Below, one piece after another: positions 14,759-36,290 of a stretch of 64,000 bases of DNA. A program made the position numbers and the translations under genes. This DNA comes from a virus (lineage: Duplodnaviria; Heunggongvirae; Uroviricota; Caudoviricetes). How positions within the stretch are numbered: position 1 is the first letter of the stretch; every line of letters starts with the position of its first letter. The stretch lies in the IMG/VR virus record IMGVR_UViG_2571042445_000002; one strand, written 5' to 3'. Under the pieces are notes generated by a model that did not search any database, had not been told where the DNA came from, and saw nothing but the letters and a program-made list of their open reading frames with translations.

Positions 14759-16456
14759 GTGAACAAGAACATTGAGCCAGCTCGTAAGCGCGAGCGCGAG
14801 ATTATGAATCGGGCGGCAAGCGTCATGGCTATGACCGTCGATCCAACCACTGATGCTGCCGGTAACATGATTACCGACAACGAAGTGATGATGGCTAACC
14901 TGGAAAAAGCTATCCAGAAAGAGCCAATGTTTGAAGGCGTTGGACCAGAAGCAGCTCGCCAGATCATTGGTAGCTGGGCCATGTCTATTCATGAATACAA
15001 ACGCCAGCATGGGCATTATCCGGCAAGCGATGTATTAGCCAACGCCCATGTAGCACTTGAGCGCCTGATGATGGAGTCCGCTAAAGAGACGCATGAAGGC
15101 GCTGGCAAAGCCATGTTTGAATCAGTAGCCAAGGACATGCGCACCTCCGATGGTGTAATGAAGGTTGCACAATATGCCGCACTGATCCTGCCTGCTTCTC
15201 TCGGCGCAGCCACCAGCGACGCATGTACGTTTATCCCTTGTGATCGTGATGAAACCAATATTTACGAGCTGACCAACGTTGCTGGTACAAAATTCGGTAC
15301 ATTCGAGCAGGGCGATGAACTGAACATGCAGTCTGCTGGCGTGTATTCGCAGATGAAACGCCTGTACATCCTGACCGAAAAAGGCGATGGCAGCAAAACC
15401 ACCTTCCAGTTTGATATCCAGAACTTCGAAGGCCAGGCCTGCCCGCTGCGCCAGGGCTACAACAAACTGCTGATTAACCGCAAACCGTCCAAAGTAGATG
15501 ATGGTGACGGCAACCTGTATTTCAACGACAAAGACGTCAACGGCAACTCTTTCTCTGCTACAGCAAAAGTTAAATACGATACCGGCGTTATCGATATCAC
15601 CTTTAATGAAGCACCAGCAGAAGGCACAGAAATCGCTGTTCAGGTTGAAATCAACATTGAACGCAATCCGAGCCTGATACCAGTCATTAACCAGTCCATG
15701 CGCAATTACGCCCTGCGCCCGTCGCAGTACGTGATCGCATCCGAACATACGGTTATGACAGCATCTGACCTGAGCCGTGAACACGGACTCGAACTGGCAG
15801 CATTGCAATTCTCCGCAATGCGCAACTGGATTTCCCACGAAATCGATATGATGCGCCTGCGCACTCTGGTATTCCACACAGTTTACGGTCGTGAATTTGA
15901 TGTGGCACTGCCAGAAGCGCAGAACTACGAATCGTGGGTTGGTTTAATTCGCCATGTAGTGAACGCGCTGTCACAGGACATGGCTGACCGCACCCTGACT
16001 ACCGGTATCCGTGGTGGCTTTGCTGGTGGCGATGCTGCTAACTTCCTGCGTTCCTTACCGCCGCAGCACTTCCAGTTGGCACCGGGCTATGTACAGTCGC
16101 CGTACATTCAATACATCGGCACCCTGTTTGGTTCCATTCGTATCTACGAAGTGCCGAAGCCTATCTGCAAACAATTCCAGGAACATGGCTACGACTTTGG
16201 CCTGGACGACATCTACTTCTATGGTCGTGGCGAAGGCATTGGTAAAGCTGGCCTGGTCGCTGGTGATGCTGTGCCTGCTATTCCGTATGTCCACGAAACA
16301 AATCCAGCCCTGGTAAACCGCACCACTCTTTGGGGTACAGCAATCAACGATGTGCATCCGCGCAACGGTGAGAACTATTTCACTCGCCTTCGCCTGACAC
16401 GTTCGAAAGAAGGTGCGATTGACATGTTGAGCGGGCAAATCAACGAAAAAAAGTAG
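14759..16456 (+). CDS. major capsid protein candidate (large, ~62 kDa)
   Basis: 565-aa ORF adjacent to the sheath gene; GTG start at 14759 with AGGG upstream; size matches the P1 major head protein as recalled; assignment by size and position. Confidence 0.45.
   Translation: MNKNIEPARKREREIMNRAASVMAMTVDPTTDAAGNMITDNEVMMANLEKAIQKEPMFEGVGPEAARQIIGSWAMSIHEYKRQHGHYPASDVLANAHVALERLMMESAKETHEGAGKAMFESVAKDMRTSDGVMKVAQYAALILPASLGAATSDACTFIPCDRDETNIYELTNVAGTKFGTFEQGDELNMQSAGVYSQMKRLYILTEKGDGSKTTFQFDIQNFEGQACPLRQGYNKLLINRKPSKVDDGDGNLYFNDKDVNGNSFSATAKVKYDTGVIDITFNEAPAEGTEIAVQVEINIERNPSLIPVINQSMRNYALRPSQYVIASEHTVMTASDLSREHGLELAALQFSAMRNWISHEIDMMRLRTLVFHTVYGREFDVALPEAQNYESWVGLIRHVVNALSQDMADRTLTTGIRGGFAGGDAANFLRSLPPQHFQLAPGYVQSPYIQYIGTLFGSIRIYEVPKPICKQFQEHGYDFGLDDIYFYGRGEGIGKAGLVAGDAVPAIPYVHETNPALVNRTTLWGTAINDVHPRNGENYFTRLRLTRSKEGAIDMLSGQINEKK
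16447..16453 (+). other. candidate -1 frameshift slippery heptamer A AAA AAG at the last two sense codons of the capsid gene
   Basis: A-run 16446-16452 plus G 16453 in X XXY YYZ register relative to capsid frame; -1 frame is open for 33 codons to TAA at 16558-16560. Confidence 0.35.
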
Positions 16457-16597
16457 CAGTGGCGAACGTGTCAGTTTCACCAACGGCAATTGAAGTAAAC
16501 GAAGGTGAAACTATCGCCGCAAGCACTTCAAAGACACGAAAAACACCCAAAAAGAAGTAAGACAAGCCCCTGAATAGGGGGCTATATGGAGGAAAAA

Positions 16598-16876
16598 ATG
16601 GCTGATATTCAGGTAACTATTACCCCACCAAATGCGACAGATAAAACTTTCACTGTCGAATCCGATCATCCGGAAATTGTGAGAGTTGATGGAACCACAT
16701 GCACCGCAGTATCTGCTGGTACTGCGGTACTAACCATCAAAACTACAGATGGAAATAAAACCGCAACGTGCACTGTAACGGTTAATGAAGCCGCAGTAAG
16801 TGTCGACTCTGTCAGCGTTGATCCGTCAACCAAAGAAGTGACGGTAGGTGACAGCTTCACGGTCGGCGAAGCCTGA
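16598..16876 (+). CDS. bacterial Ig-like (Big_2-type) domain protein
   Basis: ITPPNATDKTFTVESDHPEIVRVDGTTCTAVSAGTAVLTIKTTDGNKTATCTVTV is a typical Big_2 pattern; SD GGAGG 5 nt upstream of ATG 16598. Confidence 0.5.
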   Translation: MADIQVTITPPNATDKTFTVESDHPEIVRVDGTTCTAVSAGTAVLTIKTTDGNKTATCTVTVNEAAVSVDSVSVDPSTKEVTVGDSFTVGEA

Positions 16877-16880
16877 TAAA

Positions 16881-16906
16881 AGTCTCCCCATGCAAATGGG
16901 GAGACT
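16881..16906 (+). other. 10-bp perfect hairpin (AGTCTCCCCA-TGCAAA-TGGGGAGACT) between Ig-like gene and sheath gene
   Basis: Perfect stem; no clear U-tract, so terminator function uncertain. Confidence 0.4.
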
Positions 16907-16941
16907 TCTCTCATCCGCTCGATAAAGAGGAAAAGAGCAGC

Positions 16942-18597
16942 ATGAATAAAATTGGTTTTTCTGTTGGTCAGGCGGCGGGCGTTGCGGTAGCGGACGTAAA
17001 TGCCGATGCTACCCTGTCCAACACATCTGGCGGTGCTTCCGTCTTTGCCGGGTTGGTTATTTCCCGCAGAGGGGCACCAGGCAAGGTTTTGCAGGTTACA
17101 GCAGCCAACTATCAGAGCGTGTTAGGTTCACCTCTTCACCCGCGCACCGGGGCCGCATTTGAACCATATCGCCACGTTGAACGCGCAGTAAAAGGCGGCA
17201 CCGGTTATGTGGTTCGCGTATGCGCAAAAGACATGAAAGTACCGGGCATTGCCGTTTCTGTTCAGGCCAGGTCGAAAAGCACCAAGTCAGCAAAAACTCT
17301 GCAAATTGCTCCGACCGAAGCAACGGTAAATATCGGCGATACACTGACCGTTCGTGCCGTTTCTGGAGCCACTTCTCCGGTAACTTTCGCTGCAAGCGAA
17401 ACACCTGAAATTTCCGGCAGTGAACTGGCTATTTTCTACATAAAGGACGGTGATGCTTCGACAAACCGCACGTTATCACTGACCCGTGAGGACGAAGAAA
17501 ATGACCTGTTCACTCTGGAACTGAAAGAGACACAGACCGATGGTTCTGTAGAAACTTTGGAAAGCTACCAGGTTTCTTTCGATCCGGATGCAACGAACGA
17601 TATGGGCCAGCCAGCATGGATTCCTGCGTTGTTAGAAAGTCAGTCCTCCAGGCTTGGAGCTGTACTGGCTGATGGTGCCGAAGACTCCGCTCACTTGCTG
17701 ACTTTCGAAGATGTAGCGTTTGAAGGCGGTACAGATGGCGATCTGTCCTCAATTGACGCTGATGATTATCTGAAAGCGTTAGAGGTTCTCGAAGCGTCAG
17801 AAGTTAATTATACCGCACTGCTTTCTATGGGCTGCTACGACGCATCCGTGCTGGCAAAAATTAATTCGCTGGCAGAAGACGTTCGCGTGGATATGTTCTA
17901 CGACCTGAAATGTGCTCAGACTGGTGATAACGCTATCGCGGAAGCTAAATCACATGGTTTCGGCAAATCCCACCAGGCTGCACGTTATCACTTCCCGTAC
18001 TCATGCCGTGACACTTTCAGCGGTATGAATGTGGTTTACGGAATCAGTTGTGATGCGTTCGTGGCAAAAGCGAAAGGCGTTGCGCTTGTGTCTGATGTAG
18101 GCGGCTGGCATTACGCCCCGGCTGGTCTGTCTCGCGCAATCATTGATCGCCAGAACATCACCAGACTCTCCGGAATTGGCACAATCGATCGTGAAGCGTA
18201 TGTGACCGCTCGTATTAACCCTGTAAGCGTTGCAGCGGATGGTTCTGTCTACATCGACGACTCCCTGACGACATACAGCAAAAATAACTATCTGCGATTC
18301 CAGCACGTTTCATCACTGATGAATGCAATTGCCCGCAATTTCTATGAAGTTGCTCAGGCAATCAAGCATGAACCTGATGGTGTAACGCAGGAAAGTCTGA
18401 CTAACGCACTGACAGATATTCTGGACCGTTTTTATGCGGCTGGTGCGCTGGTTACACCACGCGATGAATCTCAAGGTTCTGACCCTTATGTGGTCAAGGT
18501 AACTCAAAAAGACATCGACTTGTGGGAAGTGGAATGGTCCGTGTGCCCAACAGGCACTGCCCGTCGAATCCTCGGCAAACCAATCCTGATGCGTTGA
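16942..18597 (+). CDS. tail sheath protein (contractile tail) with inserted Ig-like domain
   Basis: 551 aa; internal Big_2-like segment (TLQIAPTEATVNIGDTLTVRAVSGATSPVTFAAS); C-terminal region typical of sheath proteins by general pattern. Confidence 0.5.
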   Translation: MNKIGFSVGQAAGVAVADVNADATLSNTSGGASVFAGLVISRRGAPGKVLQVTAANYQSVLGSPLHPRTGAAFEPYRHVERAVKGGTGYVVRVCAKDMKVPGIAVSVQARSKSTKSAKTLQIAPTEATVNIGDTLTVRAVSGATSPVTFAASETPEISGSELAIFYIKDGDASTNRTLSLTREDEENDLFTLELKETQTDGSVETLESYQVSFDPDATNDMGQPAWIPALLESQSSRLGAVLADGAEDSAHLLTFEDVAFEGGTDGDLSSIDADDYLKALEVLEASEVNYTALLSMGCYDASVLAKINSLAEDVRVDMFYDLKCAQTGDNAIAEAKSHGFGKSHQAARYHFPYSCRDTFSGMNVVYGISCDAFVAKAKGVALVSDVGGWHYAPAGLSRAIIDRQNITRLSGIGTIDREAYVTARINPVSVAADGSVYIDDSLTTYSKNNYLRFQHVSSLMNAIARNFYEVAQAIKHEPDGVTQESLTNALTDILDRFYAAGALVTPRDESQGSDPYVVKVTQKDIDLWEVEWSVCPTGTARRILGKPILMR

Positions 18598-35575: not shown

Positions 35576-35963
35576 GAGTGCTTTTGTGACCTTTTTTAGT
35601 AATACAATCCTTTGGTACAAAAAAGCCGCCGTCCAGTCAATGACGGCGGGCAAAATGAACACTCAGTTAGTGGTATCTGAGAGGGGGGCATTATATTCAC
35701 TGAATGACGCTTGTGAAGACTCACATGTCATCATTTTGTCCTCAAGAATCAGCTCACATCTTGCGCATTCAAGCGTATTTCTCTTTAAAGCCGTGTTTGG
35801 ACCATTTTGTTGATACGCGAATTTGGCATCCTCCACGCTCTGAGTGACGAGGTTTACGGACCACCGGGCCATCATATGCATCCATTTTGTGTGAATGGCA
35901 TTTAGTCGGGAAATAACAAACTGGATAAGTTGAAGCCGCGTTAAACGTCATTTCTGGAGGGGT

Positions 35964-36290
35964 ATGTTTGCAGATTATGAAAATCTGGCTGTAGCAGTCA
36001 TAACATCCCTGCTGAGTGGAACCGGCGTATTCCTTCTCGGAGTTAGAGACGGGCGCATTTCTGCGTCACTGCTCAACCTCGCGAGTGAATTGTTTACTGC
36101 GGTAACTGCCGGGCTTGCGGGGTTTTGGGTGGCTGATAGCTATGAATGGCCGGAAGGCATCATTTACTGCGTTGTTCTGATTGCCAGTAACAACGGAAGT
36201 GAAATTTTACAGGGCTTGAAGTCCAGAGCTAGTAACGTCTTGAATCTCTTAAGCGTAATAGCGAGTGGGGGAAAAGGTGGAGAGAAGTAA
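35964..36290 (+). CDS. holin-like small membrane protein (LydA-like candidate)
   Basis: 108 aa with ~3 hydrophobic segments and charged C-terminus; SD GGAGGGG; first gene of operon that includes the DarA-like gene. Confidence 0.4.
   Translation: MFADYENLAVAVITSLLSGTGVFLLGVRDGRISASLLNLASELFTAVTAGLAGFWVADSYEWPEGIIYCVVLIASNNGSEILQGLKSRASNVLNLLSVIASGGKGGEK

What the first reader, a model, noticed from the sequence alone, without database searches (positions are those of the whole stretch)
16598..16906. Stand-alone Big_2 domain gene ending inside a second, truncated Ig-like repeat, followed by a 10-bp perfect hairpin
The 92-aa ORF holds one complete Big_2 domain, then the opening of a second (AVSVDSVSVDPSTKEVTVGDSFTVGEA) cut by the stop. 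The sheath gene downstream carries its own inserted Big_2 domain. This looks like remnants of domain shuffling; the hairpin at 16881-16906 could be a stability or attenuation element.
Basis: seen in the sequence. Interest (0 to 1): 0.4.

Follow-up and report, generated by a model that had tools for sequence, protein, structure and literature searches.

The report
Split Ig domain: frameshifted capsid tag plus catcher
The small gene encodes an Ig-like domain that lacks its first two strands; those strands are encoded after the capsid gene's stop, reachable only by a programmed -1 ribosomal frameshift, so the phage appears to hang this protein on a subset of capsid subunits by completing a split domain.

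Summary
The ORF (16598-16876, 92 aa) and the following hairpin are real, but the ORF does not hold a complete Big_2 domain. It matches Big_2 profile positions 22-79 only, so strands A/A' are missing. Its C-terminal tail is the A/A' opening of a next repeat, making it one repeat period in a shifted register.

The missing strands lie upstream. The capsid gene ends ...GAA AAA AAG TAG. That places the heptamer A_AAA_AAG (16447-16453) in the correct phase, followed by a 35-codon -1-frame extension, VAVANVSVSPTAIEVNEGETIAAS + a Lys-rich end.

Every intact D6-like copy examined keeps this heptamer, as do three more distant lineages. Two other lineages carry the same tag in frame on the capsid protein, and another group fuses a whole Big_2 domain there. 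Among the loci inspected, tag and 92-aa gene always occur together. The tail is under purifying selection (pN/pS 0.21), so it is not debris.

Best reading: the frameshift-tagged capsid protein anchors the 92-aa protein by beta-strand complementation, and the tail may recruit further copies. The frameshift and the split architecture are well supported. The docking itself is inferred; no structure prediction succeeded.

The hairpin is a conserved stem-loop with compensatory changes and no U-tract. Verdict: a new variant of frameshift-added Ig-like capsid extensions.

The parts
14759..16456 (+). Major capsid protein gene (565 aa), stop TAG 16454-16456
   Evidence: 88% aa identity to phage D6 major capsid protein and 45% to P1 gp23.
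16447..16453 (+). Slippery heptamer A_AAA_AAG in X_XXY_YYZ phase (codons GAA AAA AAG), directly before the stop
   Evidence: Present in all 30 D6-like sequences that passed the site search, while the stop codon varies TAG/TGA/TAA. Two error-prone assemblies have one A fewer. Also kept in L108, L109 and L110. It is the only in-phase AAAAAAG in the window that lies at an ORF end with a long -1 ORF.
16453..16560 (+). -1-frame extension, 35 codons plus TAA: VAVANVSVSPTAIEVNEGETIAASTSKTRKTPKKK. Carries the Big_2 A/A' strands ('tag') and a Lys-rich end
   Evidence: Open in 29 of 30 D6-like sequences. pN/pS is 0.47 in this frame against 1.4-1.7 in the others. It hits repeat-profile positions 66-88 (9.6-10.3 bits; 0-3/500 shuffles). 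Grafted onto the ORF core it raises the Pfam Big_2 score from 28.9 to 37.3 bits with profile coverage 1-79; a shuffled tag gives 28.1.
16459..16520 (+). Candidate frameshift-stimulating stem-loop, 5 nt after the heptamer (stems 16459-16465/16514-16520 and 16473-16481/16504-16512)
   Evidence: MFE -26.3 kcal/mol for the 91-nt segment 16440-16530, z = -3.3. It also folds in D6 and L005 (z = -4.0, -2.6). The consensus is kept in 8 sequences, one pair going A-U/G-U/G-C. Synonymous divergence here is 0.17 against 0.40 in the flanks. It is not conserved in L108.
16565..16583 (+). Hairpin 1 (AGCCCCU-GAAUA-GGGGGCU) after the tag ORF
   Evidence: MFE -13.2 kcal/mol for the 46-nt segment 16555-16600, z = -2.9. 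The basal pair is A-U in the window and C-G in D6-type sequences. A GC-rich hairpin after the capsid gene is seen across the family.
16588..16592 (+). Shine-Dalgarno GGAGG for the 92-aa ORF
   Evidence: Read directly from the sequence. The equivalent AGGAG is present in D6.
16598..16876 (+). 92-aa Ig-like 'catcher' gene. Residues 1-64 are Big_2 strands B-G. Residues ~67-92 (nt 16796-16873) are the A/A'/half-B strands of a next repeat
   Evidence: Pfam Big_2 29.1 bits, profile positions 22-79. Residues 3-89 align collinearly with single periods of giant tandem Big_2 arrays. In the solved Big_2 domain 7quz, residues 25-46 align to ORF residues 67-88 and residues 47-114 to ORF residues 4-70. pN/pS is 0.15 for the core and 0.21 for the tail.
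16880..16907 (+). Hairpin 2: 12-bp perfect stem, loop GCAA, followed by UUCUCUC (no U-tract)
   Evidence: 5 of 15 pairs with compensatory changes. Not called as an intrinsic terminator. No Rfam family matches it.
17254..17421 (+). Insert in the sheath gene (16942-18597), residues ~105-160, with a weak A/A'-like motif KTLQIAPTEATVNIGDTLTV. Tentative part of the system
   Evidence: Extra relative to P1 sheath. Conserved among D6-likes. Profile score 7.7 bits in the same register (2/300-7/500 shuffles); relatives score weaker and the controls are negative. Sheaths are 537-563 aa where the 92-aa gene exists and 525-529 aa where it does not.

Best explanation
The window is a D6-like (P1-related) phage-plasmid. 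One Big_2 Ig-like domain is split across two genes.

Step 1, shown by comparative sequence evidence. Most ribosomes stop at the capsid gene's TAG. A fraction slips -1 on A_AAA_AAG, probably helped by the stem-loop 5 nt downstream. These ribosomes add 35 residues that carry Big_2 strands A/A' and a Lys-rich end.

Step 2, shown. The next gene is translated from its own SD. It makes a 92-aa protein with strands B-G and then, at its C-terminus, a second copy of strands A/A'/half-B.

Step 3, inferred. The tagged capsid subunits supply the missing strands, so the 92-aa protein docks on the head by beta-strand complementation. This would be a non-covalent version of the capsid-Big_2 fusion seen in relatives. 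Frameshift efficiency would set the copy number.

Step 4, inferred and less certain. The protein's own tail can complete the domain of another copy, giving chains, or it can compete with the capsid tag. The sheath insert may be a further docking site.

Hairpin 2 is a conserved RNA stem-loop without a U-tract. It most likely acts as a 3'-end stabiliser or leaky attenuator between the head genes and the sheath gene.
For: - Frameshift site: the heptamer is in phase and directly precedes the stop in the D6-likes. It is present in all 30 D6-like sequences that passed the site search.
- More distant lineages: the same heptamer, two codons before the stop in L108 and L109 and directly before it in L110, leads in the -1 frame to the same kind of tag. 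In L109 that frame has no start codon at all, and in L108 the first one lies past the A strand, so only frameshifting can express the tag.
- In-frame tags: L105 and L106 carry the tag in frame on 599- and 604-aa capsid proteins, each followed by a 95-96-aa gene of the same permuted type.
- Whole-domain fusions: five capsid homologues carry a complete in-frame Big_2 domain. The one whose locus was inspected (L107) has no separate Ig gene.
- Co-occurrence: lineages without a tag have no Ig gene.
- Tag identity: all 8 tags hit the same profile register (positions 66-89) at 7.6-10.9 bits.
- Chimera test: tag + core completes the Pfam profile to positions 1-79.
- Solved structure: the alignment to 7quz shows tail plus head equals one domain.
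- Selection.
- Independent case: Rosenbergiella phage L016 has G_GGA_AAG + TGA + an 11-bp hairpin at the same capsid position.
- Literature: A_AAA_AAG is the most shift-prone heptamer in E. coli, and frameshift-derived Ig-like coat extensions are known (PMC5009743).
Against: - There is no direct evidence for the frameshift product or for docking.
- The D6 records annotate orf50 and orf49 only as a hypothetical protein or a 'structural protein with Ig domain'.
- AlphaFold2 of the ORF with a 12-sequence alignment was weak (pLDDT 64). The tag-ORF fusion folded without an alignment failed (pLDDT 33), so there is no structural support.
- Selection on the tag is only moderate (pN/pS 0.47).
- The downstream stem-loop is mostly invariant sequence, so covariation is thin, and it is absent in L108.
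- The sheath motif is weak.
- AAAAAAG itself is common in the window: 30 copies against 18.8 expected.
Confidence: 0.55

Rival explanations
1. Autonomous decoration or adhesin protein. The 92-aa protein is a circularly permuted Big_2 domain that closes on itself, its tail folding back in cis. It binds the virion, or acts in solution, by some other surface. The capsid tag then has an independent role, for example as a spacer with a basic end.
For: Tail + core completes the Big_2 profile (34.0 bits, positions 2-79). The AF2 model puts residues 78-82 and 86-91 into strands. Many phage Ig-like proteins are accessory decorations (PMC5009743).
Against: - Only ~7 residues link strand G to the tail's A strand. 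In Ig-like folds these two ends lie at opposite poles of the domain (general structural knowledge, not measured here).
- Residues 65-76 have pLDDT below 50.
- It does not explain why a capsid tag of exactly the missing strands co-occurs with the gene in every lineage inspected.
Confidence: 0.2
2. Evolutionary debris. An ancestral capsid-Big_2 extension was broken by indels and rearrangement, and the tag and tail are non-functional leftovers.
For: Relatives with intact capsid-Big_2 fusions exist. The ORF corresponds to one repeat period cut at an odd register.
Against: - Tail pN/pS is 0.21 and tag pN/pS is 0.47, against above 1 in the other frames.
- The same architecture is kept at 69-83% capsid identity, with both frameshifted and in-frame tags.
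- The heptamer is present in every intact copy, while neighbouring synonymous sites vary (pS 0.40).
Confidence: 0.1
3. The mini-ORF is made as a free ~34-aa peptide by termination-reinitiation (UGAUG in D6; GUG at 16459 in the window), not as a capsid extension.
For: The D6 annotation starts orf50 at an ATG that overlaps the capsid stop.
Against: - There is no SD.
- L109 has no start codon in that frame, and in L108 the first one lies past the A strand.
- L105 and L106 carry the tag covalently in frame.
- The in-phase heptamer would then have no reason to be conserved.
Confidence: 0.05

Closest known systems
Frameshift-derived Ig-like C-terminal extensions of phage major capsid and tail proteins (T3 coat protein, Lactobacillus phage A2, Listeria A118/A500/PSA; reviewed in PMC5009743; Fraser et al. 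2006 from my own knowledge)
   Same: A -1 shift at the very end of the major capsid gene gives a minority product bearing Ig-like (Big_2) sequence on the head.
   Different: Here the extension carries only ~20 residues (strands A/A'). The rest of the domain is a separately initiated 92-aa protein in a permuted register. I found no description of such a split.
E. coli dnaX -1 frameshift cassette (A_AAA_AAG plus a 3' stem-loop)
   Same: Identical heptamer, in an enterobacterial host with a single tRNA-Lys, and a stem-loop ~5 nt downstream.
   Different: No clear upstream SD-like stimulator. Here the stop codon abuts the heptamer, and efficiency is unknown.
Phage T7 gene 10A/10B
   Same: A minor capsid protein made by a -1 shift near the end of the coat gene, with the extension displayed on the capsid.
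   Different: The T7 extension is not Ig-like and has no partner protein.
Donor-strand complementation/exchange (chaperone-usher pili, type V pili) and the engineered SpyTag/SpyCatcher split of an Ig-like domain (from my own knowledge)
   Same: An Ig-like fold lacking an edge strand is completed by a strand from another polypeptide. A subunit that both lacks a strand and carries a donor strand can polymerise head to tail.
   Different: No chaperone, usher, protease or isopeptide chemistry is evident. The missing element is N-terminal A/A'. Complementation here is inferred, not shown.
Ig-like capsid decoration proteins (T4 Hoc, T5 pb10; from my own knowledge)
   Same: A small, probably non-essential Ig-like protein on the virion surface.
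   Different: Those proteins bind through dedicated capsid-binding domains, not by completing a split domain.

Membership tests
Pfam Big_2 (PF02368) | Score above the gathering threshold | tested here: met
   29.1 bits against a cutoff of 22.8.
Pfam Big_2 (PF02368) | A complete domain (profile covered end to end) within one polypeptide | tested here: not met
   Only profile positions 22-79 of 79 align. Coverage becomes 1-79 only when the capsid tag, or the protein's own tail, is grafted in front.
Programmed -1 ribosomal frameshift cassette | X_XXY_YYZ heptamer in the zero-frame phase | tested here: met
   A_AAA_AAG at 16447-16453; (16447-14759) mod 3 = 2.
Programmed -1 ribosomal frameshift cassette | Heptamer and -1 ORF conserved across diverged relatives, with the -1 ORF under coding selection | tested here: met
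   All 30 D6-like sequences that passed the site search, plus L108, L109 and L110. pN/pS is 0.47 in the -1 frame against 1.4-1.7 in the other frames.
Programmed -1 ribosomal frameshift cassette | 3' stimulatory structure 5-9 nt downstream | tested here: inconclusive
   A stable stem-loop lies 5 nt downstream in D6-likes. Covariation is thin, and L108 has no equivalent.
Programmed -1 ribosomal frameshift cassette | Transframe protein detected | not testable with these tools
   Needs virion mass spectrometry or a reporter assay.
Donor-strand complementation systems | Acceptor fold lacks an edge strand, and a matching donor strand sits on a partner polypeptide | tested here: met
   Met at sequence level only: the acceptor lacks A/A', and the donors match the same profile register.
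Donor-strand complementation systems | Donor strand physically inserted in the acceptor | tested here: inconclusive
   AF2 of the ORF gave pLDDT 64. AF2 of the tag-ORF fusion as a single sequence gave pLDDT 33. No multimer tool was available.
Rho-independent terminator (for hairpin 16880-16907) | GC-rich stem followed by a U-tract | tested here: not met
   The stem is present, but the tail is UUCUCUC, and the scan calls no + strand terminator here.

The most novel reading that the evidence does not exclude
The 92-aa protein is a self-polymerising, strand-exchanging Ig module. A frameshift-made tag on some capsid subunits, and possibly the sheath insert, nucleates head-to-tail chains. In each chain the domain is built from strands B-G of one subunit and A/A' of the previous one. 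The result would be non-covalent Ig fibres of variable length from a single tiny gene, in effect a natural Tag/Catcher system whose valency is tuned by frameshift efficiency.
Probability: 0.25. Interest if true: 0.8.

Novelty: new variant of a known kind. Interest (0 to 1): 0.62.

Why it matters
- Annotation. D6-like phage-plasmids sit in about 2% of complete E. coli genomes (101 of 5,426, always on plasmids). Their capsid frameshift is not annotated, either in the phage D6 records or in the RefSeq plasmid records inspected.
- Mechanism. If the split domain reassembles, it would be a natural example of attaching a decoration protein by completing an Ig fold, with copy number set by recoding.
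- Evolution. Related phages show the whole series: a full fusion, an in-frame tag plus catcher, and a frameshifted tag plus catcher. That makes it a tractable case of domain fission.
- Application. It is a possible scaffold for phage display and for split-domain protein engineering.

Tried and rejected
- A second recoding event or bypass joining the tag to the ORF was rejected. The tag frame ends at TAA 16558. The ORF's frame has TGA in the hairpin-1 loop (16572-16574), also in D6, and the ORF has its own SD.
- Transcriptional slippage on the A7 run was judged less likely than ribosomal slippage. The run is short and the heptamer phase is conserved. This was not tested.
- The exhaustive HMMER search with the ORF returned only giant tandem Big_2 proteins. 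It was useful for the register argument but gave no context.
- The word-indexed search gave only close D6-like homologues.
- Foldseek of the weak model gave only marginal Big_2 and lambda gpV Ig hits.
- AF2 of the tag-ORF fusion without an alignment failed.
- Rfam gave nothing above threshold.
- The D6 genome paper (PMC5800970) is not held.
- L046 and the other IMG/VR hits below 60% identity are unrelated multi-Big_2 proteins.
- L012 is a frameshift-ridden assembly and was ignored.

Full report
**Context.** Region 14.7-18.7 kb of the window is 76% identical in DNA to Escherichia phage D6, a P1-related phage-plasmid, and has the same gene order. That order is major capsid protein (14759-16456), a 34/35-codon mini-ORF, a 92-aa 'Ig domain' ORF, then tail sheath (16942-18597). 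P1 and Cronobacter phage JK004 (45% capsid identity) go straight from capsid to sheath. The module occurs in 121 PLSDB plasmids and in 101 of 5,426 complete E. coli genomes, always on plasmids.

**Checking the observation.** The ORF, its truncated second repeat and the hairpin are all present. The 'complete Big_2 domain' is not.
- Pfam Big_2 aligns only profile positions 22-79 of 79.
- An exhaustive HMMER search shows residues ~3-89 aligning collinearly with single periods of giant tandem Big_2 arrays.
- Against the solved Big_2 domain 7quz, chain residues 25-46 align with ORF residues 67-88, and residues 47-114 align with ORF residues 4-70.

So the ORF is one repeat period in a shifted register: strands B-G followed by A/A'/half-B.

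The sheath has a ~32-aa excess over P1 sheath. It gives no Pfam Big_2 hit and contains only a weak A/A'-like motif.

**The missing strands.** The capsid gene ends GAA AAA AAG TAG. This places A_AAA_AAG (16447-16453) in X_XXY_YYZ phase directly before the stop. The -1 frame then reads VAVANVSVSPTAIEVNEGETIAASTSKTRKTPKKK* (16453-16560).
- Residues 1-23 hit positions 66-88 of a profile built from 2,124 tandem Big_2 repeats. The score is 10.3 bits, with 0/500 shuffles as high.
- Grafting the tag onto the ORF core raises the Pfam Big_2 score from 28.9 to 37.3 bits, with coverage 1-79. A shuffled tag gives 28.1 bits.

**Conservation in D6-likes.** I examined 8 fetched plasmid or phage copies and 22 IMG/VR contigs.
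- All 30 copies that passed the site search keep the heptamer, while the stop codon varies (TAG/TGA/TAA).
- The -1 ORF is open for 35 codons in 29 of 30.
- Two error-prone assemblies (L009, L011) have one A fewer. In L009 this led PGAP to annotate a 599-aa fused capsid protein.

Selection measures, pN/pS over 22 unique sequences:

| Region | pN/pS |
|---|---|
| Capsid C-terminus | 0.09 |
| Tag, -1 frame | 0.47 |
| Tag, other two frames | 1.4-1.7 |
| ORF core | 0.15 |
| ORF tail | 0.21 |
| ORF tail, other two frames | ~3 |

Synonymous divergence in the tag region is only 0.17, against 0.40 in the flanks. That fits an overlapping RNA constraint.

**RNA structure near the shift site.** A stable stem-loop begins 5 nt after the heptamer (16459-16520). 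The enclosing 91-nt segment has z = -3.3. The structure also folds in D6 and L005, and one pair varies A-U/G-U/G-C.

**Wider relatives settle function against debris.**
- Capsid homologues at 76-83% identity (L108 Raoultella, L109 Enterobacter hormaechei, L110) have different zero-frame tails. All keep an in-phase A_AAA_AAG, zero to two codons before the stop.
- In each, the -1 frame encodes the same kind of tag (V.VTGVSV...VG[DE]...). Each is followed by a 92-aa gene of the same permuted type; in L110 the contig ends after 59 codons of it.
- In L109 that frame has no start codon, and in L108 the first one lies past the A strand.
- Two lineages at 69-72% identity (L105, L106) carry the tag in frame on 599- and 604-aa capsid proteins. 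Each is again followed by a 95-96-aa permuted Ig gene.
- Five homologues at 47-51% identity fuse a complete Big_2 domain in frame. The one whose locus was inspected (L107) has no separate Ig gene.
- Lineages with only low-complexity tails have no Ig gene.
- All eight tags hit the same profile register at 7.6-10.9 bits, and control tails do not.
- Independently, a Rosenbergiella relative has G_GGA_AAG + TGA + an 11-bp hairpin at the same capsid position. It leads into a 70-aa Ala/Lys-rich -1 extension.

**Mechanism.** Shown by comparative sequence evidence:
- a conserved -1 frameshift cassette at the end of the capsid gene;
- a tag that equals the strands the downstream protein lacks;
- purifying selection on all the pieces;
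- strict co-occurrence of tag and Ig gene in the loci inspected.

Inferred: tagged capsid subunits anchor the 92-aa protein by strand complementation. This is functionally equivalent to the fused capsid-Big_2 of relatives, but non-covalent and, in D6-likes, sub-stoichiometric.

Inferred and less certain: the tail of one subunit completes the next subunit, giving chains. The ~7-residue linker looks too short for closure in cis. That judgement rests on general knowledge of Ig fold geometry, not on a measurement here. The sheath insert may be another donor. Sheaths are 537-563 aa where the Ig gene exists and 525-529 aa where it does not, but the motif is statistically weak.

Structure prediction gave no help (pLDDT 64 and 33).

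**The hairpin at 16880-16907.** It has a 12-bp stem with 5 of 15 pairs compensated across clades. It has no U-tract and no terminator call. Similar GC-rich hairpins follow the capsid gene across the family. It most likely acts as a transcript 3'-end stabiliser or a leaky attenuator separating abundant head messages from the sheath gene. This is inferred.

**Comparison with known systems.** Frameshift-added Ig-like extensions on coat proteins are known in T3, A2 and A118, and A_AAA_AAG is the most shift-prone heptamer in E. coli (PMC5009743). What is new here is that the domain is split. The capsid carries only a ~20-residue strand tag, and the remainder is a separately translated, register-shifted protein that carries its own donor tail. 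Both D6 records lack any frameshift annotation.

**Verdict.** This is a new variant of a known kind.

| Claim | Confidence |
|---|---|
| Frameshift and split architecture are real and selected | ~0.8 |
| Docking by strand complementation | ~0.5 |
| Polymerisation into chains | ~0.25 |

Noticed in passing
L016:4690-4960 (Rosenbergiella metrosideri contig NZ_JALBCV010000011.1): The capsid gene ends GCG GGA AAG TGA. That is G_GGA_AAG in phase, followed after ~4 nt by an 11-bp perfect hairpin. The -1 frame is open for ~70 codons of Ala/Lys/Asp-rich sequence. It looks like an independent, textbook -1 frameshift cassette at the same capsid position, with no Ig gene.
   Followed up: partly
L009 (NZ_CP031917.1) and L011 (CP042632.1): The A-run at the shift site is one base shorter, which puts the tag in frame. 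PGAP annotates a 599-aa 'capsid protein' in L009. L011 also has another shortened homopolymer, so these are probably sequencing errors rather than natural variants.
   Followed up: partly
window 36269-36275: G_GGA_AAA lies in phase 5 codons before the end of a ~118-codon stop-to-stop ORF (35934-36290), with 153 open codons in the -1 frame. It may be a tail-chaperone-type frameshift.
   Followed up: no
window, whole: AAAAAAG occurs 30 times against 18.8 expected (1 of 100 shuffles reaches 30). Only three copies are in X_XXY_YYZ phase inside ORFs of at least 100 codons, and only the capsid one lies at an ORF end.
   Followed up: partly
window 16874-16879: The 92-aa ORF ends with tandem in-frame stops, TGA TAA. 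D6 has a single stop.
   Followed up: no
window 16586-16588: An upstream in-frame ATG overlaps the SD and would give a 96-aa product. It is absent in D6-type sequences, so 16598 is the likely start.
   Followed up: yes
capsid homologues P0162-P0260: The capsid C-terminus in this phage-plasmid family is a hot spot. Tails range from 3 to ~110 residues: low-complexity PT/E-rich, Ala-rich, a strand tag, or a whole Big_2 domain. Many end in a short Lys-rich motif.
   Followed up: partly
window 16565-16583 and relatives (L013, L015, L023, L107): A GC-rich hairpin without a U-tract follows the capsid gene in every relative inspected. D6-likes have two, one after the tag ORF and one after the Ig gene.
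   Followed up: partly
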